Positions 41,920 through 48,773 of a DNA stretch of 64,000 nt are shown in pieces. The position numbers and the translations under genes are program-made. Position 1 is the first letter of the stretch, and every line of letters begins with the position of its first letter. The stretch comes from an uncultured Lachnospiraceae bacterium (GTDB lineage: Bacteria > Bacillota > Clostridia > Lachnospirales > Lachnospiraceae): assembly GCA_946549155.1 (NCBI GenBank), contig CAMNQN010000001.1, positions 531 to 64,530 of the forward strand, in the 5' to 3' direction. The notes under the pieces were generated by a model. The model searched no databases. It saw only the letters and a program-made list of their open reading frames with translations, and had not been told where the DNA came from.

Positions 41920-42166
41920 TATATTCAGGTATAGAATGCTTGAGGAATACAGTGAATCTTTTGGCTTGTAACAAGGAGGATAGCAATATGAAGCTGGAAG
42001 AAACGGAAAGGGATACAGTACTAGATTTTTTGAGAATTATTGCGCAATTAATTACTGGAGTTCCTTGTATAATTCAAAGCGCAGAGGAGTTCGATGAATA
42101 AAACGTTATTTGAAGCGGTAGGTTCTGCGAAATATGATAGAATTTGTTCGGGGAAGGGGAGAAAGT

Positions 42167-43627
42167 ATGGATTCAAAAGCTATCAAAACAATATTGGATA
42201 TAGGGGAAACTATTGCGGTAGAATTTAAACGTTGTGGAAATGGTATTGATAGTGACGTTTACGAAACGGTATGTTCCTTTTTAAACCGTTTTGGCGGAGA
42301 CATATTTTTAGGCGTACTGGATGATGGAACAGTTTCTGGTGTGCCTGAAAATGCTGCATCTGATATGGTAAAAAATTTCATAAGCTGTGTCAGTAATCCG
42401 TTATTGTTTACGCCGACAGTCTATTTATCGCCTCAAGTTATACAGTATGAAGGGAAAACGGTTATTCATATACATGTTTTACCAAGCGCGGAGGTGCACA
42501 GTTATAAAAAGACGGTTTATGATCGGGTAGATGATGCAGATGTAAAGGTAACAGCAACTTCTCAAATTGCGCAAATGTATATTCGTAAACAGGAAATTTT
42601 TACGGAGCGAAAAGTTTATCCTTATGTAAAGAAAGAAGATCTCCGGCTCGACTTATTTCCTAAACTTCGTGTTATGGCAGAAAATCAGAGTAGGGGGCGG
42701 GGGCATTTATGGAACAGTATGACAGATGATGAATTAATGAAAAGTACAAGGCTATTTACAATGGATCGCGTGACGGGTGAGCAGGGTTTTAATTTGGCGG
42801 CAGTTATGCTTTTGGGAAGAGATGATGTGATTTTGGATATTGTTCCGGCCTATGTGACAGATGCGTTGCTTCGCCGTGTTAATATAGACCGTTATGATGA
42901 TAGAGAAATGGTGCAGACAAATTTGATAGAAAGCTATGAGATTTTAATGGAATTTGGACGTAAGCATTTGCCGGATAAATTTTTCCTGGAAGGTGATCAG
43001 AGGAAGAGCCTGAGGGATATCATTACTCGGGAAATGATCGCAAATACATTAATTCATCGTGAATATACAAGCTCTTATCATGCAAAATTCGTGATCGGGG
43101 AAGAACGAATGTATGTGGAGAACGCAAATCGAGCTTCTCAGAATGCAGTTATTACGCCAAATAACGTGGAGCCATCACCGAAAAATCCAATTATTGCAGC
43201 TTTTTTTAGAAACATTGGATACGCAGATCAACTAGGTTCAGGTGTACGAAATTTATTTAAATATAGTAAATTTTATTCAGGCGGAGGCCCTGAGTTTATT
43301 GAAGGGGACATATTCAGAATTATTGTACCGCTGAAGGAAGAAAATAGGGAGGAAATAACCACCCAAACGTCCACCCAGTCCACCCAAACGTCCACCCAGT
43401 CCACCCAATCAAGCGGGATGGACTTGGAACAGGCAATTATTATGCTTATAGAGCGGGAGCCATTTCTTTCTCAAAAACAAATGGCTGAAAAATTGTGTTT
43501 AAATGTAAATACACTGAAGTATTATATGAAGAAAATGCGGGAAAAAGGGATGATTGAGAGAGTTGGTACCAGCCGAAAAGGAAAATGGATGGTGTCTGAA
43601 CATGGCAGTTCCTGCGGCAAATTTTAG
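42167..43627 (+). CDS. AlbA_2 (Schlafen-like) + HATPase_c_4-like + C-terminal wHTH protein
   Basis: GETIAVEFKRCG....FLNRFGGDIFLGVLDDGTVSGV (AlbA_2 pattern). ANTLIHREYTS. Thr/Gln/Ser repeat linker. C-terminal LSQKQMAEKLCLNVNTLKYYMKKMREKGMIERVG (wHTH). ATG 42167 follows GGGGAGAAAG. Confidence 0.7.
   Translation: MDSKAIKTILDIGETIAVEFKRCGNGIDSDVYETVCSFLNRFGGDIFLGVLDDGTVSGVPENAASDMVKNFISCVSNPLLFTPTVYLSPQVIQYEGKTVIHIHVLPSAEVHSYKKTVYDRVDDADVKVTATSQIAQMYIRKQEIFTERKVYPYVKKEDLRLDLFPKLRVMAENQSRGRGHLWNSMTDDELMKSTRLFTMDRVTGEQGFNLAAVMLLGRDDVILDIVPAYVTDALLRRVNIDRYDDREMVQTNLIESYEILMEFGRKHLPDKFFLEGDQRKSLRDIITREMIANTLIHREYTSSYHAKFVIGEERMYVENANRASQNAVITPNNVEPSPKNPIIAAFFRNIGYADQLGSGVRNLFKYSKFYSGGGPEFIEGDIFRIIVPLKEENREEITTQTSTQSTQTSTQSTQSSGMDLEQAIIMLIEREPFLSQKQMAEKLCLNVNTLKYYMKKMREKGMIERVGTSRKGKWMVSEHGSSCGKF
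43358..43410 (+). repeat. In-frame 21-nt tandem repeat (2.5 units) encoding (TQTSTQS)n
   Basis: ccacccaaacgtccacccagt occurs twice, then ccacccaatca, inside the AlbA_2 gene linker. Confidence 0.9.
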
Positions 43628-43712
43628 AATGCAGGTGATTGCAATTAATGAAGGTTTGAAGAAGATAGAGAGGAAGGATACGATTTTGCTGCAGGATAAT
43701 AGGAATAAAATA

Positions 43713-44618
43713 ATGTCGGTGGTTCTTCCCGCCTACAATGAGGAGGCCATGCTGCTAAAAACAGCGGAGACATTAAAAAAAATATTACAAAAGGAAAAGA
43801 TAGAGTATGAACTGGTCTTTGTGGACGATGGTTCCAAAGACAGTACCTGGAAACGCATCGAGGAGGCGGCCGGAGCGGATTGCCAGGTGCGCGGCGTACA
43901 TTTTTCCAGAAATTTCGGAAAGGAGGCGGCCATCTTTGCGGGGCTGGCATCCGCTTCCGGGGATTGTGTGGCGGTGATGGACTGTGACCTGCAGCATCCC
44001 CCGGCGGCATTGGTGGAAATGTACCGGCTCTGGGAAGAAGGGTACGAGGTGGTGGAAGGCGTGAAGAAAAGCCGCGGGAAGGAAAGTGCGCTGCACCGGG
44101 CCAGTGCGGGGATGTTTTATAAGCTGATGTCGAAGGCCACCAGCATTGATATGTCCCGGGCTTCGGACTTTAAGCTGTTGGACCGCAGGGCGGTGGAGGT
44201 TCTGCTGGAGATGCCGGAACGGAACGCGTTTTTCAGGGCCATGTCCTCCTGGATTGGTTTTCAATCCACCACGGTGGAGTTTGATGTGCAGGAGCGGGAG
44301 GCAGGCGAGTCGAAATGGTCTACGAAATCTTTGATTCAGTACGCGATTACGAATATTGTGGGGTACTCTGCCGCACCGATGCAGGTTGTGACGGGAGCGG
44401 GGGTGGTGGTCTTTTTGCTGGGAATTGTTTTGGGTATCCAGACGTTGATACGGTATTTCAGCGGACATGCTGTGGAAGGGTTTACCACGGTTATTTTGCT
44501 GCTGTTGCTGTTGGGGAGCATTATTATGATCAGCCTGGGGATTATTGGATATTATATTTCCCGGATTTATGAGGAAGTGAAGGGACGGCCCAGGTATATT
44601 ATTTCAAAAAGGATTTAG
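43713..44618 (+). CDS. GtrB-like polyprenyl-phosphate glycosyltransferase, copy 3 (divergent)
   Basis: MSVVLPAYNEE, VDDGSKDST, FSRNFGKEAA, DCDLQHPP, two C-terminal TM helices, RPRYIISK. ATG 43713 chosen because the track start 43554 overlaps the upstream gene. Confidence 0.85.
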   Translation: MSVVLPAYNEEAMLLKTAETLKKILQKEKIEYELVFVDDGSKDSTWKRIEEAAGADCQVRGVHFSRNFGKEAAIFAGLASASGDCVAVMDCDLQHPPAALVEMYRLWEEGYEVVEGVKKSRGKESALHRASAGMFYKLMSKATSIDMSRASDFKLLDRRAVEVLLEMPERNAFFRAMSSWIGFQSTTVEFDVQEREAGESKWSTKSLIQYAITNIVGYSAAPMQVVTGAGVVVFLLGIVLGIQTLIRYFSGHAVEGFTTVILLLLLLGSIIMISLGIIGYYISRIYEEVKGRPRYIISKRI

Positions 44619-44668
44619 TTCGATTAATATAATTAGCAATAAGTTGCAGATAATAACAAAAAGAAATC

Positions 44669-44697
44669 TTGCAACATCCCGGCGATTGTTGTAAAAT
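44669..44697 (+). promoter_or_regulatory. Candidate sigma-70-type promoter of the methyltransferase/nuclease cassette
   Basis: TTGCAA (44669-44674), 17-nt spacer, TAAAAT (44692-44697). GGAGG RBS lies before ATG 44770. Confidence 0.5.
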
Positions 44698-44769
44698 AGT
44701 AAGTGTATAGGCGTAAATGAAGGGGTCTTTGGTTTGGATAGCTAAGCAGAGAAAAATGGAGGTAGATGG

Positions 44770-47658
44770 ATGGACAGCATACGGACAATTATACAGCGGC
44801 TGGGATATGAGAAGTCAGATGGATTGTTTTACGCATCGGAATTGTCCAGATGCAGTTTGCTATCCTGGCATGACAAGAGGGTATTGAAGGAGCTATTGCC
44901 GTATGCGGTATATATTGCGGATGGTAAGATTTTTGTTGCCTTTTTTAATGACTTGCATCTGCGGGAGAATAGTGAAATTCAATGTAAGATTTGGAATGCT
45001 CAGATACCGGTTATTATTTCTGATGAGGGCGAGCTGGTTAAGATTTATAATGGGCGAAGTATGCAGCTTGGGGATGCCCGGAAAGTGCTGCTCTCGCATA
45101 TTGGGGACTATGAGATAGAGCAATTTGATGAAACGTGTTCGTTTTCTTACTGGAATGTCACAAACGCTGATTTGACCGGTGAAAAAAGAGAAAATTCAGA
45201 CAGGACATATTTCAATGATTATTTGGTGGATAATCTCAAATTTCTCACGCAGCAGCTGAAGGAAAGGTATCATATAACCTTTGCCAATAAATTTGTTTTA
45301 CGGATTATATTTATTCGATACTTGATTGATCGAGGCATAGATATTGGATATGGTGGATTGAATGGTGACAGAGAAAAATCCCGGCATATTTTTTTGGAGA
45401 TTGTCCGGAATAAGAGTGAACTTTTTGCTTTGTTTGCTTATTTAAAAAATCGATTTAATGGGAATCTTTTTGAAATGGAGGAGGCGAAAGAGCGGGAAGA
45501 AATGAAAGAAGCGGCACTGTTTTTGGTGCATGTTTTCTTGACCGGGCAGATGGAGGCCAGGACGGGACAGTTATGGCTGTTTCCTTTTTATGACTTTAAT
45601 ATTATACCGATTGAATTGATCAGCAATATATACGAGATTTTGCTTGGACGTGAAAAGCAGAATAAAGATAAGGCTTTTTATACACCGGAATATCTTGCAG
45701 ATTTTATGGTTGAGCAGACGGTTGGAGCTTATTTAATTAAGGAACGGGAATGCACGGTGCTGGATCCGGCTTGCGGATCAGGGATCTTTCTGGTAAAGGC
45801 GCTTAGAAAGATTTTGGAGAAAAATGCGTCCGAAAATGGCTTTTTGGACAGAGACGAAATTAATCGGTTGGTTGAAGCCAATATATACGGTGTAGATTAT
45901 AACGAAGAGGCAATAGATGTTACGATTTTTTCTCTGTATATTACGCTATTTGATTATCAGGATCCTAAGAGCCTGAAGGATTTTAAGCTTCCTTTGCTTA
46001 AAGGGAAAAATATTCTTTATGGTGATTTTTTTGATGAGGATACATTGGAGCCTATGAATGGTATCAAGTTTAAATTTGTTATCGGAAATCCACCATGGGG
46101 CAGTGTGCAGCAGAATTTATATAAGGAATATTGCAAAAAAAGAGGGGTTAAACTTCAAAATGGAGAGATCAGTGTTGCATTTTTATTGAAAACATGGGAA
46201 ATGGGGGGTGCGGATACGGAATGCAGTCTCATTATTCCGTCTAAGATTTTATATAAGGGCAAGGCACCTTCCTGTGATTTTCGGAAAAAAATGCTGACAG
46301 AAGTAGAGATGCGCCAGGTATTGGAGCTTTCTGCTGTAAGAAAACAAATATTTAAGGGGGCGGTAGCACCGGCAGCGGTGTTGTCTTTCGTATGCAAAAA
46401 AGCACTTTATGAACATAAGGTGGAGTATATTAGTTTAAAGCCCAATGAATATTTAAGACGTTTCGGCATTATAATGGTTGAACCAGATGATATTAAATAT
46501 GTAGAGCAGAGCTCTCTCTTACAATATGATGAATTGTGGAAAATATTGGTGTATGGAGGATATTGGGATTTTGAGCTGCTTCATTCGATGAAAAGAAAGC
46601 TGCAAACGATTAGGGATATTGAAAAGAAGTATGGGCTTATGCCAGGCGAAGGCATTCAGGATCATTATGGAGATGGCCAGGATGCGTCGCATTTGACAGG
46701 ACGTATATTGTTGGATTCTGATGGATGTATTGAACATTTTAAGTTAAATACAGAGCATCTGGAGGTGTTTCAAAAAGAACGGATTCATCGTCCGCGAAAA
46801 AAGGAATTGTTTGAACCGCCGTATGTTTTTTTCAAGAAAGGATTGGATTGCAGCAATTATTCTATCAAGGCTGTTTATTCGGAAAAGCGGCTGGTTTATA
46901 AAGAGACGGTTAATTGCATTAAAGGAACCTTTGCGGATAAAGGGGTGCTTTTAAATCTTGCAGGACTTTTTAATTCTTCTTTATTTTCCTATTTTAATCT
47001 CATGCTGGGTTCTTCGGTAGGCATTGAACGGGAGCAGATGTTTTCTACGGAGTTGGAAAATTTCCCGTATGTTTATAGTGAAGAGCTGGTTATGCTTGTT
47101 CAAAAGATTCAGGAAGCTGCGGAAGCGGGAAATGATATAACGGATTGGAAGGAAAAGCTGGATCAGTGTGTCCTTGAAATGTACGGCGTACAGGACAATT
47201 ATTTTGTGGATTATGCTTTGAAAATTCAGATTCCAATCTTGTGCGGAAAATACAGAAAGACAAAATGCAGGGAAGAGATTTTGAAAAAATACGCACAGGT
47301 TTTTATGGAATTATGGCAGGCGCGGTTAGAAAGAACAGGTTTGTATTATTCTATTTACTTATACCCGGATATAAAAGGAAAATTTACGGCGTTTCAGATG
47401 AAACTTTCTTTTGAAAAGCTGGATAAAGAGATACATGTTGTGGAAACCATCGATGATGATGTGGAGTTGCTCACCAAATTTATGATTTATAAGTGGAACG
47501 ATTGCTTTTTTCAGACAAAGAATGTGGTGGAGTTTGATGAAGATTCTTTTGTAATTGTGAAAACTGCAGATTCGAAAAACTGGCACCCTGCTATGGCGAT
47601 AAAGGATAGTTATAAGGCTTTAAATACAGTACTTCTGGGAGAGGAGGACTGGAAATGA
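44770..47658 (+). CDS. Large gamma-class N6-adenine DNA methyltransferase, MmeI/PglX-like architecture
   Basis: Motif I VLDPACGSGIFLV (V330). Motif IV VIGNPPWG (N440). Upstream FNGNLF and IPIELISNIYEILL blocks. About 500 aa C-terminal to the catalytic core, presumably the specificity region. Confidence 0.8.
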   Translation: MDSIRTIIQRLGYEKSDGLFYASELSRCSLLSWHDKRVLKELLPYAVYIADGKIFVAFFNDLHLRENSEIQCKIWNAQIPVIISDEGELVKIYNGRSMQLGDARKVLLSHIGDYEIEQFDETCSFSYWNVTNADLTGEKRENSDRTYFNDYLVDNLKFLTQQLKERYHITFANKFVLRIIFIRYLIDRGIDIGYGGLNGDREKSRHIFLEIVRNKSELFALFAYLKNRFNGNLFEMEEAKEREEMKEAALFLVHVFLTGQMEARTGQLWLFPFYDFNIIPIELISNIYEILLGREKQNKDKAFYTPEYLADFMVEQTVGAYLIKERECTVLDPACGSGIFLVKALRKILEKNASENGFLDRDEINRLVEANIYGVDYNEEAIDVTIFSLYITLFDYQDPKSLKDFKLPLLKGKNILYGDFFDEDTLEPMNGIKFKFVIGNPPWGSVQQNLYKEYCKKRGVKLQNGEISVAFLLKTWEMGGADTECSLIIPSKILYKGKAPSCDFRKKMLTEVEMRQVLELSAVRKQIFKGAVAPAAVLSFVCKKALYEHKVEYISLKPNEYLRRFGIIMVEPDDIKYVEQSSLLQYDELWKILVYGGYWDFELLHSMKRKLQTIRDIEKKYGLMPGEGIQDHYGDGQDASHLTGRILLDSDGCIEHFKLNTEHLEVFQKERIHRPRKKELFEPPYVFFKKGLDCSNYSIKAVYSEKRLVYKETVNCIKGTFADKGVLLNLAGLFNSSLFSYFNLMLGSSVGIEREQMFSTELENFPYVYSEELVMLVQKIQEAAEAGNDITDWKEKLDQCVLEMYGVQDNYFVDYALKIQIPILCGKYRKTKCREEILKKYAQVFMELWQARLERTGLYYSIYLYPDIKGKFTAFQMKLSFEKLDKEIHVVETIDDDVELLTKFMIYKWNDCFFQTKNVVEFDEDSFVIVKTADSKNWHPAMAIKDSYKALNTVLLGEEDWK

Positions 47659-48314
47659 ACGGGCAGATAAACAGTAGTATCCGTCAGGCGCTGCGGCAGG
47701 ATGAATTTGAGCAGATTGTGGGGTATATTCTGAGCGTTTGTTGCCTTGTTCTGGATGATTTTCAGCGAAGAAAACGCACGCTGCCGAATGATGAAAACCG
47801 TATTAGAAGTATTATTTTGAACGAATATCTGGACGATGATGAGGTCAGAAAAAATTATGGGATGTCGGACTGTGAGTTTATTCCTGAAGTGCCGGAAAAT
47901 TATGATGGAGCCGGGCATTATAAAGGCAGGACAGATATCCGAATCAAAGTGAAATCAGATTTTGACAGGCGGGCTGCTTATTACATAGCAGAATGCAAAA
48001 GAATTGACGGAAGTCCTGACTTGAACAAAGCTTACGTTCACGAAGGAATTGCCAGGTATAGCAACAGAAAGTATTCTGCATATTTTGGGAAAAATATCAT
48101 GCTGGGTTTCGTTGTAAAGCCCTTGAATATAGCGGAGAATACAAAGCGAATTGAACAAATCCAAAATGAATTGGAGGATACCTGTATGCATGGAAAGTTT
48201 CGGCTGCTAGATACGCAGGCTTGCGGAGAAGTTTATAATTGTATTTATCAGATGGAAAAAGAGAAATTGGAACTTCGACATATTTTTTCGGATTTTTCCG
48301 ATATTATGGAATGA
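47655..48314 (+). CDS. Small PD-(D/E)xK nuclease-fold protein
   Basis: ATGA overlap with the methyltransferase gene. GRTDIRIKV (D94), then about 19 residues later YIAECKRIDG (E-x-K). Confidence 0.65.
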   Translation: MNGQINSSIRQALRQDEFEQIVGYILSVCCLVLDDFQRRKRTLPNDENRIRSIILNEYLDDDEVRKNYGMSDCEFIPEVPENYDGAGHYKGRTDIRIKVKSDFDRRAAYYIAECKRIDGSPDLNKAYVHEGIARYSNRKYSAYFGKNIMLGFVVKPLNIAENTKRIEQIQNELEDTCMHGKFRLLDTQACGEVYNCIYQMEKEKLELRHIFSDFSDIME

Positions 48315-48356
48315 GGAAAAAGGAGAATATCTGAACCTTCAGGAGGAAATTGAGCA

Positions 48357-48773
48357 ATGAAACAACTGCTACAGCTTTACAAAAAATACAAAGAAATCAT
48401 CAATTACCTGATCGTAGGCGGCCTGACCACGGTGGTGAGCCTGGCGGTTTATTATGGCTGTGTGCTTACGTTCCTGAACCCACAGGATGGGGTTCAGCTG
48501 CAGGCGGCCAATATTATTTCCTGGATCGCGGCGGTGACCTTCGCCTACTTTACGAACCGGAAATTTGTGTTTGAGAGCAAAAATACGGATAAACTGCGGG
48601 AGGCGGCGGCTTTTTATGGCTCCCGGGTGCTGACGCTGCTGATGGACATGGCCTGTATGTTTCTGATGGTGACCCTGTGCGGTGTCAATGATAAGATCGC
48701 GAAGCTGGTGGTACAGGTGATTGTGACGGTGGGAAATTATGTGCTCAGCAAGTTTCTTGTGTTTCGGAAGTAA
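48357..48773 (+). CDS. GtrA-family small membrane protein (polyprenyl-phosphate-sugar flippase candidate)
   Basis: 138 aa, 4 TM. YLIVGGLTTVVSLAVYY, FTNRKFVF, NYVLSKFLVF. AGGAGG RBS. Confidence 0.8.
   Translation: MKQLLQLYKKYKEIINYLIVGGLTTVVSLAVYYGCVLTFLNPQDGVQLQAANIISWIAAVTFAYFTNRKFVFESKNTDKLREAAAFYGSRVLTLLMDMACMFLMVTLCGVNDKIAKLVVQVIVTVGNYVLSKFLVFRK

What the first reader, a model, noticed from the sequence alone, without database searches (positions are those of the whole stretch)
44669..48314. Promoter-equipped two-gene cassette: MmeI/PglX-like methyltransferase without an obvious nuclease motif, plus a stand-alone mini PD-(D/E)xK protein
The 962-aa protein has gamma-class N6-adenine MTase motifs (DPACGSG at aa 330-338, NPPW at 440-443). 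It also has the FNGNLF and IPIELISNIYEILL blocks I associate with Type IIG/IIL (MmeI-like) and BREX PglX enzymes, and a ~500-aa C-terminal region. In MmeI-like enzymes the nuclease is an N-terminal D...ExK domain. I could not find a convincing one in the first 150 aa here. The next gene overlaps by ATGA and encodes only 219 aa, with a textbook core (TDIRI ... AECK). This reads like a split or non-canonical restriction/defence system, not a standard Type II pair and not a full BREX locus. The cassette is lower in GC than its neighbours. It sits exactly between gtrB copy 3 and gtrA, which normally belong together.
Basis: partly seen in the sequence, partly recalled or inferred. Interest (0 to 1): 0.6.

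Follow-up and report, generated by a model that had tools for sequence, protein, structure and literature searches.

The report
Two-piece restriction-modification cassette, separate nuclease
A large DNA methyltransferase that keeps only a dead remnant of a cutting domain is paired with a small intact nuclease gene; the pair is widespread in bacteria, unnamed, and probably a bacterial defence enzyme split into two proteins, which current annotation tools mistake for a one-protein enzyme.

Summary
Two intact, translationally coupled genes (962 aa and 219 aa, ATGA overlap) form a 3.7-kb low-GC insert between gtrB and gtrA. A close relative has those two genes adjacent.

- **Large protein:** an active-looking gamma-class N6-adenine methyltransferase with a Type IIG/IIL layout. 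Its N-terminal domain has no PD-(D/E)xK catalytic triad in any of 61 relatives.
[quoted passage not shown] It is a PD-(D/E)xK nuclease.
- **Pairing:** 72 of 73 related loci with enough downstream DNA carry the same pair, down to 29% identity and across many phyla. In all 71 measurable pairs the stop and start codons lie within -20 to +3 bases. One sub-clade adds a controller-type HTH gene upstream.

The best reading is a restriction-modification system whose nuclease is a separate subunit. PADLOC's "Type IIG" model PDLC03603 matched only members of this family among 300 sampled genomes, and no library model matches the partner. An independent Type II endonuclease is not excluded. No physical complex, cleavage or methylation motif has been shown. 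The scan noted the same kind of cassette earlier on other genomes. I rate it a new variant of a known kind, of moderate interest.

The parts
44619..48356 (.). Inserted cassette (about 3.7 kb, GC 0.38-0.41) between gtrB and gtrA
   Evidence: Homology to same-genus genome G017 (gtrB-gtrA-tagF contiguous) ends at 44618 and resumes at 48384. GC profile. The small nuclease was found in 0 of 18 other genomes of the genus. No flanking repeats.
44669..44697 (+). Promoter-like site TTGCAA-17 nt-TAAAAT
   Evidence: Found by the consensus scan, but the number of such sites in the region equals the shuffle expectation. Weak evidence only.
44758..44762 (+). GGAGG ribosome-binding site, 7 nt before the ATG of the methyltransferase
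   Evidence: Read directly from the sequence.
44770..47658 (+). 962-aa N6-adenine DNA methyltransferase / specificity subunit (P0001)
   Evidence: Pfam N6_Mtase 1.1e-19, Eco57I 1e-18, MmeI_Mtase 3.2e-10. PADLOC REase_MTase_IIG PDLC03603 1.9e-105 over residues 1-788. Relatives at 29-99% identity.
44770..45174 (+). N-terminal alpha/beta domain (aa 1-135): probable degenerate nuclease-like domain
   Evidence: AlphaFold2 model with pLDDT 85.5 gives a helix/strand core: H33-42, E46-50, E53-60, H69-77, E81-85 and further strands. Only P44, F58 and W75 are invariant, and no sequence has the D/(D/E)/K triad. Foldseek is not significant, but its top hits are DrdV, Hjc, BpuSI and HsdR.
45211..45609 (+). 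Helical connector (aa 148-280) with invariant FNGNLF (aa 229-234, bases 45454-45471)
   Evidence: Helices 148-258 in the model. F229-F234 invariant in 61 sequences.
45610..46449 (+). Gamma-class methyltransferase core (aa 281-560). Motif I DPACGSG at 45763-45783, motif IV NPPW at 46087-46098
   Evidence: Pfam N6_Mtase 282-555. Both motifs invariant. PDB profile hits to BrxX, MmeI and Type I HsdM cover only this part.
46450..47655 (+). C-terminal 400 aa: presumed target-recognition region
   Evidence: Weak TaqI_C match at 655-766, below cut-off. Conserved along its length in relatives. The function is inferred from the Type IIG/IIL layout.
47641..47647 (+). GAGGAGG ribosome-binding site inside the end of the methyltransferase gene
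   Evidence: Read directly from the sequence.
47655..48314 (+). 219-aa PD-(D/E)xK nuclease subunit (P0002). E78 at 47886-47888, D94 at 47934-47936, E113 at 47991-47993, K115 at 47997-47999
   Evidence: Invariant E47, D94, E113 and K115 in the wide alignment of 37 sequences, with E78 in at least 90%; E78 is invariant in the 40-sequence alignment. [quoted passage not shown] 18 of 40 members weakly match Pfam PDDEXK_9 over the D...ExK stretch. Lies directly downstream of the methyltransferase in 72 of 73 loci.

Best explanation
The cassette is a two-subunit restriction-modification system.

**Large protein.** It reads a DNA sequence with its C-terminal region and methylates an adenine there to mark host DNA (gamma-class N6A methyltransferase, motifs I and IV intact). 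Its N-terminal domain is a decayed remnant of the nuclease domain that single-chain Type IIG/IIL enzymes (MmeI, BpuSI, DrdV) carry at that place. It has lost the catalytic residues and is kept as a scaffold.

**Small protein.** The 219-aa protein is translated by coupling from the same mRNA. It is the active PD-(D/E)xK nuclease. It most likely has no sequence specificity of its own. It would dock on the large subunit, possibly on the pseudo-nuclease or helical connector part, and cut unmethylated foreign DNA at or near sites the large subunit recognises.

**What is shown:** gene integrity, motifs, absence of the triad in the N-terminal domain, strict co-conservation and coupling, controller-type HTH genes in a sub-clade, and the horizontal insertion.

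**What is inferred:** the physical complex, the dependence of cleavage on the large subunit, the cleavage position, the nuclease ancestry of the N-terminal domain, and anti-phage or anti-plasmid function.
For: **Co-conservation**
- In 5 of 5 independent metagenomic contexts of small-protein homologues (35-52% identity), a 960-982-aa N6_Mtase/Eco57I/MmeI_Mtase protein lies directly upstream.
- In 80 genome loci found with the methyltransferase, 72 of the 73 with enough downstream DNA have the small gene next. This holds down to 29% methyltransferase identity and across Bacillota, Saccharibacteria, Bacteroidota, Aminicenantes, Pseudomonadota and others.
- A Ciceribacter plasmid carries the same pair.

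**Coupling**
- The gap between stop and start is -1 in 36 pairs and -4 in 24. All 71 pairs lie within -20 to +3.
- In the window, an RBS sits inside the upstream gene.

**Nuclease**
- E47, D94, E113 and K115 are invariant in the widest alignment, and E78 is kept in at least 90%.
- The model is confident, with the canonical core topology.
- Weak PDDEXK_9 matches fall on the catalytic stretch.
- The family is large and stand-alone: 1659 representatives at E <= 0.001, and the top 150 are all 122-285 aa.

**Dead N-terminal domain**
- No conserved acidic or basic catalytic set is present, and 0 of 61 sequences have the triad.
- The domain is nevertheless retained, with invariant hydrophobic and structural residues.
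- This argues for a structural role.

**Restriction-modification logic**
- A C-protein-like HTH gene abuts the methyltransferase in at least 10 loci.
- A MerR regulator sits at that place on the Ciceribacter plasmid.
- Some loci lie next to serine recombinases and other R-M or defence genes.

**Precedent for the idea**
- Morgan et al. 2009 (PMC2731913) proposed that MmeI homologues without the PD-ExK motif use separately encoded nuclease partners.
Against: - No complex was predicted or shown. Only single-chain folding was available.
- Foldseek found no significant structural neighbour for either the small protein or the N-terminal domain (best E 0.32). The 'pseudo-nuclease' label therefore rests on position, topology and a suggestive but non-significant hit list.
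- A 219-aa PD-(D/E)xK protein is large enough to be a self-sufficient Type IIP/IIS endonuclease.
- The nuclease co-varies with all parts of the methyltransferase about equally (Spearman 0.71-0.82). There is no special signal linking it to the N-terminal domain.
- In near-identical Saccharibacteria cassettes the nuclease varies at its N- and C-terminal parts while the methyltransferase is constant. That is not what a tight interface on those parts would predict.
- The related DnmA-YeeB-YeeC cluster showed no restriction in B. subtilis (PMC9973331).
- No expression or methylome data are available.
Confidence: 0.55

Rival explanations
1. This is an ordinary Type II restriction-modification pair. 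The small protein is a self-sufficient, sequence-specific endonuclease recognising the same site as the methyltransferase. The two proteins act independently, and the large size and N-terminal domain of the methyltransferase are evolutionary baggage.
For: - The size (219 aa) and the catalytic motif fit many Type IIP enzymes.
- C-protein-controlled operons are typical of classical Type II systems.
- The nuclease has extra N-terminal helices and a C-terminal sheet that could bind DNA.
- The identity co-variation test did not separate the models.
Against: - The catalytically empty N-terminal domain and helical connector are conserved across phyla, with invariant residues. Baggage would be expected to be lost.
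- M-then-R order with a conserved 1- or 4-base overlap is the pattern of subunit-forming systems such as Type III mod-res and Type I hsdM-hsdS.
- Single methyltransferases of MmeI-like layout usually mark one strand of asymmetric sites. That suits a recognition-coupled nuclease better than a palindrome-cutting homodimer (established knowledge, PMC2731913).
Confidence: 0.25
2. Both proteins cut. The N-terminal domain of the methyltransferase is a non-canonical but active nuclease. It nicks one strand and the small protein cuts the other, as in heterodimeric Type IIS enzymes (BspD6I, BtsI, BsrDI).
For: - Position 51 is D/N/E in 95% of sequences.
- Position 60 is D/E in 84%.
- Position 73 is K in 59%. 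A divergent active site cannot be wholly excluded.
Against: - None of these positions is invariant.
- The window protein itself has N at position 60.
- 0 of 61 sequences carry the triad at the structurally expected positions.
- Only hydrophobic and structural residues are invariant.
Confidence: 0.08
3. The pair is not a working defence system in this genome. It is a relic or has another role, for example an epigenetic methyltransferase with an accessory or repair nuclease, as concluded for DnmA-YeeB-YeeC in Bacillus subtilis.
For: - MmeI-like methyltransferases without a nuclease motif showed no restriction activity when tested (PMC2731913, PMC9973331).
- One orphan methyltransferase without a partner exists (L096).
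- The window copy has no controller gene.
Against: - Both genes are intact, with every family-invariant residue kept.
- The pair is under purifying selection across phyla.
- It is a recent horizontal insert, not found in 18 other genomes of the genus. That pattern is typical of mobile defence genes.
Confidence: 0.1

Closest known systems
Single-chain Type IIG/IIL restriction-modification enzymes (MmeI, DrdV, BpuSI, Eco57I type)
   Same: The order of parts is the same: N-terminal alpha/beta domain, helical connector with FNGxLF, gamma-class N6A methyltransferase, C-terminal recognition region. The length is about 960 aa, and there is no second methyltransferase nearby. The PADLOC Type IIG model PDLC03603 matches at 1.9e-105. 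DrdV and BpuSI head the non-significant Foldseek list for the N-terminal part.
   Different: The N-terminal domain has no PD-ExK triad. Pfam MmeI_N, MmeI_hel, MmeI_TRD and MmeI_C do not match, and sequence similarity to MmeI is limited to the methyltransferase core. A separate nuclease gene is always attached.
YeeA/DnmA-YeeB-YeeC clusters (MmeI homologues without a nuclease motif; Morgan et al. 2009 PMC2731913; PMC9973331)
   Same: A methyltransferase of MmeI-like layout lacks the endonuclease motif and is invariably linked to separately encoded partner genes that are proposed to supply cleavage.
   Different: There the partners are a helicase (YeeB) and a GIY-YIG/T5orf172-type protein (YeeC). 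Here a single small PD-(D/E)xK protein is the partner, there is no helicase or ATPase, and the genes overlap.
Heterodimeric or multi-subunit Type II enzymes (BspD6I, BtsI and BsrDI large plus small subunit; BcgI and BsaXI RM plus S)
   Same: Recognition and catalysis are divided between polypeptides. In the first group, a small subunit supplies a nuclease active site.
   Different: In those enzymes the large subunit is itself a nuclease (BspD6I, BtsI), or carries both R and M with a separate S (BcgI). None pairs a nuclease-dead M+S chain with a nuclease-only subunit. This comparison rests on my own knowledge and on PMC4081073 and PMC11997821.
Type III restriction-modification (Mod-Res)
   Same: The order is M then R, with adjoining genes. 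The methyltransferase subunit carries the specificity, and the nuclease subunit depends on it.
   Different: Res is a large helicase-nuclease that needs ATP. Here the partner is 219 aa with no ATPase. Mod is beta-class, and this methyltransferase is gamma-class.
Proposed split Type IIG in Haloferax volcanii (HVO_A0006 plus HVO_A0237; PMC4389544)
   Same: The idea is the same: a nuclease-only fragment acting with a nuclease-less Type IIG-like methyltransferase.
   Different: That case is a transposon-broken gene at two distant loci, and the nuclease piece is homologous to Type IIG N-termini. Here the pair is a conserved operon, the methyltransferase keeps a (dead) N-terminal domain, and the nuclease shows no detectable homology to it (hhalign probability 0.13%).

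Membership tests
MmeI family / Type IIL | N-terminal PD-ExK catalytic residues (MmeI D70, E80, K82) | tested here: not met
   0 of 61 family members have D,(D/E),K at the corresponding positions. The window has Y45, N60, L62.
MmeI family / Type IIL | Gamma-class N6-adenine methyltransferase motifs and the FNGxLF connector motif | tested here: met
   DPACGSG, NPPW and FNGNLF are invariant. Pfam MmeI_Mtase 3.2e-10, above its cut-off.
MmeI family / Type IIL | Similarity to MmeI along the whole length, including the TRD | tested here: not met
   The profile search of the PDB matches MmeI (5hr4) only at residues 325-449. There are no Pfam MmeI_N, MmeI_hel, MmeI_TRD or MmeI_C hits.
MmeI family / Type IIL | Restriction and modification in one polypeptide, with no conserved partner gene | tested here: not met
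   The partner gene is present in 72 of 73 loci.
Type IIG (generic: nuclease and methyltransferase fused, SAM-dependent cleavage) | Endonuclease activity in the same chain as the methyltransferase | tested here: not met
   No catalytic motif is found in the chain. Activity itself cannot be tested here. The PADLOC model PDLC03603 nevertheless scores 352 bits.
BREX PglX | Score above the NCBIfam PglX cut-offs, and brxA/B/C/Z/L neighbours | tested here: not met
   Scores are 34-45 bits against cut-offs of 400-900. The neighbours are glycosyltransferases, GtrA, TagF-like and IspD-like genes.
PD-(D/E)xK nuclease superfamily (small protein) | Conserved D...(D/E)xK with an upstream acidic residue | tested here: met
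   E47, D94, E113 and K115 are invariant in 37 diverse sequences, down to 20% identity, and E78 is kept in at least 90%.
PD-(D/E)xK nuclease superfamily (small protein) | [quoted passage not shown] | tested here: inconclusive
   The predicted secondary structure has that order, with the motif residues on strands 2 and 3. Foldseek found no significant PDB or BFVD neighbour.
PD-(D/E)xK nuclease superfamily (small protein) | Significant match to a curated family model | tested here: not met
   No Pfam, NCBIfam, PADLOC or PHROG hit for the window protein. There are only sub-threshold PDDEXK_9 hits in 18 of 40 relatives (best E 0.0024; 15.5 bits against a cut-off of 25.5).
DnmA/YeeA-YeeB-YeeC cluster | Flanking SF2 helicase and T5orf172/GIY-YIG genes | tested here: not met
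   No such genes flank the pair in the window or in the fetched loci.
C-protein-controlled Type II R-M operon | Small HTH controller gene directly upstream | tested here: not met
   Absent in the window, where the 151-bp upstream spacer holds only a promoter-like site. Present in a sub-clade: L001, L009, L045, L049, L051, L057, L058, L078, L084, L101.

The most novel reading that the evidence does not exclude
This would be a widespread, unnamed class of split Type IIL-like restriction enzymes. It has at least 1,600 clusters at 50% identity for the nuclease alone and is found from Bacillota to CPR bacteria and Proteobacteria. A retained pseudo-nuclease domain on the methyltransferase/specificity chain would recruit a nuclease-only subunit. 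If so, current defence finders score the system as a complete single-chain Type IIG enzyme and miss the protein that actually cuts.
Probability: 0.5. Interest if true: 0.6.

Novelty: new variant of a known kind. Interest (0 to 1): 0.5.

Why it matters
- **Annotation.** The PADLOC model named 'Type IIG restriction enzyme-methyltransferase' (PDLC03603) matched only members of this family among 300 genomes of the class. The chain it matches has no nuclease motif, and its obligate partner is 'hypothetical' in every source seen. Defence censuses would then count a methyltransferase-only chain as a full restriction enzyme and overlook a large nuclease family.
- **Mechanism.** A nuclease-dead domain kept as a docking site would be an intermediate between single-chain Type IIG/IIL enzymes and multi-subunit Type I/III systems. 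It would show how such architectures interconvert.
- **Practical use.** MmeI-type recognition domains can be re-programmed. A system with a detachable cleavage module might make it possible to separate targeting from cutting.
- **This genome.** The cassette is a recent horizontal insert that splits a cell-wall glycosylation operon (gtrB | gtrA).

Tried and rejected
- **Library and PDB sequence searches with the small protein:** PDB with the single sequence and with the profile, Pfam, NCBIfam, PADLOC, PHROGs. Nothing above threshold.
- **Foldseek of the small-protein model** against PDB and BFVD. No match at E <= 0.001. The top hits (tyrosine phosphatases) have TM about 0.25 and are meaningless.
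- **Foldseek and PDB profile search with the N-terminal 285 aa.** Nothing significant.
- **Profile-profile comparison** of the methyltransferase N-terminal domain with the small nuclease, to test a duplication or split origin. No homology.
- **Region-by-region identity co-variation**, to ask whether the nuclease tracks the N-terminal domain or the recognition region. All regions co-vary alike, so the test is uninformative.
- **Search for flanking repeats or a mobile-element signature** around the insert, and for near-identical DNA on plasmids. None found. No phage homologue of the nuclease.
- **BREX, DISARM-like or MADS membership.** Rejected on scores and neighbours.
- **Homologues on Clostridium botulinum and C. 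sporogenes plasmids**. These were named only and not fetched.


Full report
**What is there.** The window holds two intact genes on the + strand: 44770..47658 (962 aa, P0001) and 47655..48314 (219 aa, P0002). The start of the second gene overlaps the stop of the first (ATGA). A GAGGAGG ribosome-binding site lies inside the end of the first gene. GGAGG lies 7 nt before the first ATG. GC is 0.38-0.41 across the pair, against about 0.50 just upstream and 0.51-0.57 downstream. The promoter-like TTGCAA-17-TAAAAT at 44669-44697 exists. However, promoter-like sites in the region are no more frequent than in shuffled sequence (12 against 11.3), so I treat it as a lead only.

**An insertion.** The neighbours are glycosyltransferase and teichoic-acid genes: GT2/gtrB-like at 43554-44618, GtrA at 48357-48773, then TagF-like, GT2, IspD-like and ADH-like genes. 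In the closest same-genus genome with this locus (G017), gtrB, gtrA and tagF are contiguous, with about 96 bp between gtrB and gtrA. Homology to the window stops at 44618 and resumes at 48384. Other relatives have gtrB followed directly by tagF. The small gene was not found in any of the 18 other genomes of the genus searched, which are 60-98% complete. There are no flanking repeats and no near-identical plasmid DNA. The cassette is therefore a horizontally acquired 3.7-kb insert, and its means of insertion is unknown.

**The large protein.**
- Family matches: Pfam gives N6_Mtase (282-555), Eco57I (371-520) and MmeI_Mtase (327-447). TaqI_C matches only below its cut-off.
- Motifs I (DPACGSG, 332-338) and IV (NPPW, 440-443) and the connector motif FNGNLF (229-234) are invariant in relatives. 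I therefore expect an active gamma-class N6-adenine methyltransferase.
- BREX PglX models score 34-45 bits against cut-offs of 400-900.
- Similarity to solved structures (BrxX, MmeI, Type I HsdM) is confined to the methyltransferase core.
- PADLOC's REase_MTase_IIG model PDLC03603 matches residues 1-788 at 1.9e-105.
- I searched that model in 300 genomes of the class. Apart from the window's own gene, it hit three places:
  - a methyltransferase plus small nuclease pair;
  - a more divergent pair, again with a D...ExK small gene;
  - a contig-truncated copy.
- Among the genomes sampled, this 'Type IIG' model therefore describes this very family.

**The N-terminal domain.**
- A model of residues 1-285, built from a 61-sequence alignment, has pLDDT 85.5. 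It shows an alpha/beta domain (to about residue 115) followed by a helical bundle (148-258).
- Across 61 sequences at 27-56% identity, the only invariant residues in the first 135 are P44, F58 and W75. A46, F59, N76 and P80 are nearly invariant.
- No acidic or basic residue is invariant.
- The strand pair 46-50 / 53-60 is where a PD...(D/E)xK would sit. Position 45 is Y in 41 sequences and D in 9. Position 60 is D or E in 51. Position 62 is never paired with both acidic residues. 0 of 61 sequences have D,(D/E),K, and the window has Y,N,L.
- The distant clade's 'QPDAFF...FFEN' looks like the remains of such a motif without the lysine.
- Foldseek gave nothing significant (best E 0.32). Its top hits were DrdV, archaeal Hjc resolvases, BpuSI, EcoR124I HsdR and YaeQ, all proteins of that fold.
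- My reading is that this is a degenerate nuclease-derived domain kept for a structural reason. That reading is an inference.

**The small protein.**
- It has no hit above threshold in Pfam, NCBIfam, PADLOC, PHROGs or PDB sequences.
- It has many relatives: 139 in the word-indexed search, and 1659 representatives at E <= 0.001 in the exhaustive search. The top 150 of those are all stand-alone proteins of 122-285 aa.
- In an alignment reaching 20% identity, E47, F75, D94, E113, K115, N124, G131, R134 and Y140 are invariant, and E78 is nearly so.
- The AlphaFold2 model (pLDDT 90.4) has helix 47-59, strands 73-80, 92-99 and 108-117, helix 121-136 and strand 146-153. D94 starts the second strand and E113-x-K115 lies on the third. 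That is the PD-(D/E)xK arrangement.
- Eighteen of 40 relatives give sub-threshold matches to Pfam PDDEXK_9 over that stretch.
- Foldseek found no significant neighbour in PDB or BFVD.
- I found no homology to the methyltransferase N-terminal domain.

**The pair is one unit.**
- Five independent metagenomic contexts of small-protein homologues all have the large methyltransferase directly upstream.
- Starting from the methyltransferase instead, I fetched 80 genome loci from many phyla. Seven end before the downstream gene. Of the other 73, 72 carry the small gene immediately after.
- The exception (L096) is an orphan copy in a genome that also has a complete pair.
- The gap between stop and start is -1 in 36 pairs, -4 in 24, and within -20 to +3 in all 71 measured.
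- A Ciceribacter conjugative plasmid has MerR, then 'N-6 DNA methylase' (1026 aa), then a 'hypothetical protein' (239 aa) with a 4-base overlap.
- A sub-clade has a 75-85-aa HTH_XRE gene abutting the methyltransferase. Its sequence is of the kind seen in restriction-modification controller (C) proteins (the C-protein resemblance is from my own knowledge).
- Several loci sit beside serine recombinases or other defence genes.

**Mechanism.** I commit to a two-subunit restriction-modification enzyme. The large chain recognises and methylates. The small chain is the nuclease and acts through the large chain. The retained but catalytically empty N-terminal domain, the Type III-like M-then-R coupling and the absence of any other partner support this. 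It is not proven. A self-sufficient Type II endonuclease of 219 aa is a live alternative, and my co-variation test could not separate the two models.

**Literature.**
- Morgan et al. 2009 (PMC2731913) described MmeI homologues that lack the PD-ExK motif (YeeA type). These are always flanked by a helicase and a GIY-YIG-like gene, and the authors speculated that the altered N-terminus binds separate cleavage subunits.
- That cluster showed no restriction in B. subtilis (PMC9973331).
- A split Type IIG was hypothesised for broken genes in Haloferax (PMC4389544).
- In three full-text searches I found no paper describing the present pairing with a single small PD-(D/E)xK protein.
- Earlier notes of this scan describe the same kind of cassette on other genomes (e1-2327429, e1-4879037, e1-4879038). 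They are not sequence look-alikes of this one at the index's sensitivity. I treat them as agreement, not as evidence.

**Verdict.** This is a new variant of a known kind (restriction-modification). It is widespread, unnamed, and apparently mis-scored as a single-chain Type IIG enzyme. Interest is moderate, 0.5.

Noticed in passing
L080:4997-5020, L081:4997-5020, L083:5000-5023, L086:2654-2677: In two diverged lineages of the same cassette (four loci), the methyltransferase reading frame is broken at the same spot. An extra C sits between the Ser and Gly codons of motif I (TCn-C-GGA ATA TT, where intact copies have TCn-GGn-ATn-TT). Both halves are otherwise well conserved, and the nuclease gene is intact. 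This is a candidate programmed +1 frameshift at a rare CGG codon, or a shared 'off' allele.
   Followed up: partly
L048, L052, L053, L087 (Saccharibacteria MAGs), nuclease genes: The methyltransferase genes are 99.3-99.8% identical at DNA level, but the nuclease genes are only 91-98% identical. The amino-acid differences shown for one pair (L048 vs L053) cluster at residues about 30-62 and 170-215, and the catalytic core (80-168) is invariant. Downstream DNA is unrelated. This suggests either recombination at the 3' edge of the cassette or diversifying selection on the nuclease surface.
   Followed up: partly
window 42134-43627 (+): A 497-aa protein with Schlafen AlbA_2, HATPase_c_4 and winged-HTH domains lies in the low-GC stretch between the GtrII genes and gtrB copy 3. 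It may be a second foreign insert in the glycosylation locus.
   Followed up: no
L042 (Clostridiaceae isolate) and L043 (Gastranaerophilales MAG); L049 (Clostridiales COT073) versus the Saccharibacteria loci: Identical or 97%-identical cassettes occur in genomes labelled as different phyla. This reflects either recent horizontal transfer or binning errors.
   Followed up: no
L006 and L007, 547-771 and 6671-6955: Here the cassette, together with serine recombinase genes, sits next to or inside fragments of a Mn-catalase (cotJC) gene. This suggests carriage on a recombinase-driven mobile element that interrupts a sporulation gene.
   Followed up: no
L096:3998-7063: This is the one orphan methyltransferase of the family, with no nuclease gene (a HemN-like radical SAM gene follows). 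It lies in an Aminicenantes MAG that also has a complete pair (L082).
   Followed up: partly
Plasmid hits H1-H5: Homologues of the small nuclease (36% identity, full length) lie on large Clostridium sporogenes and C. botulinum plasmids, annotated 'hypothetical protein'. They were not fetched.
   Followed up: no
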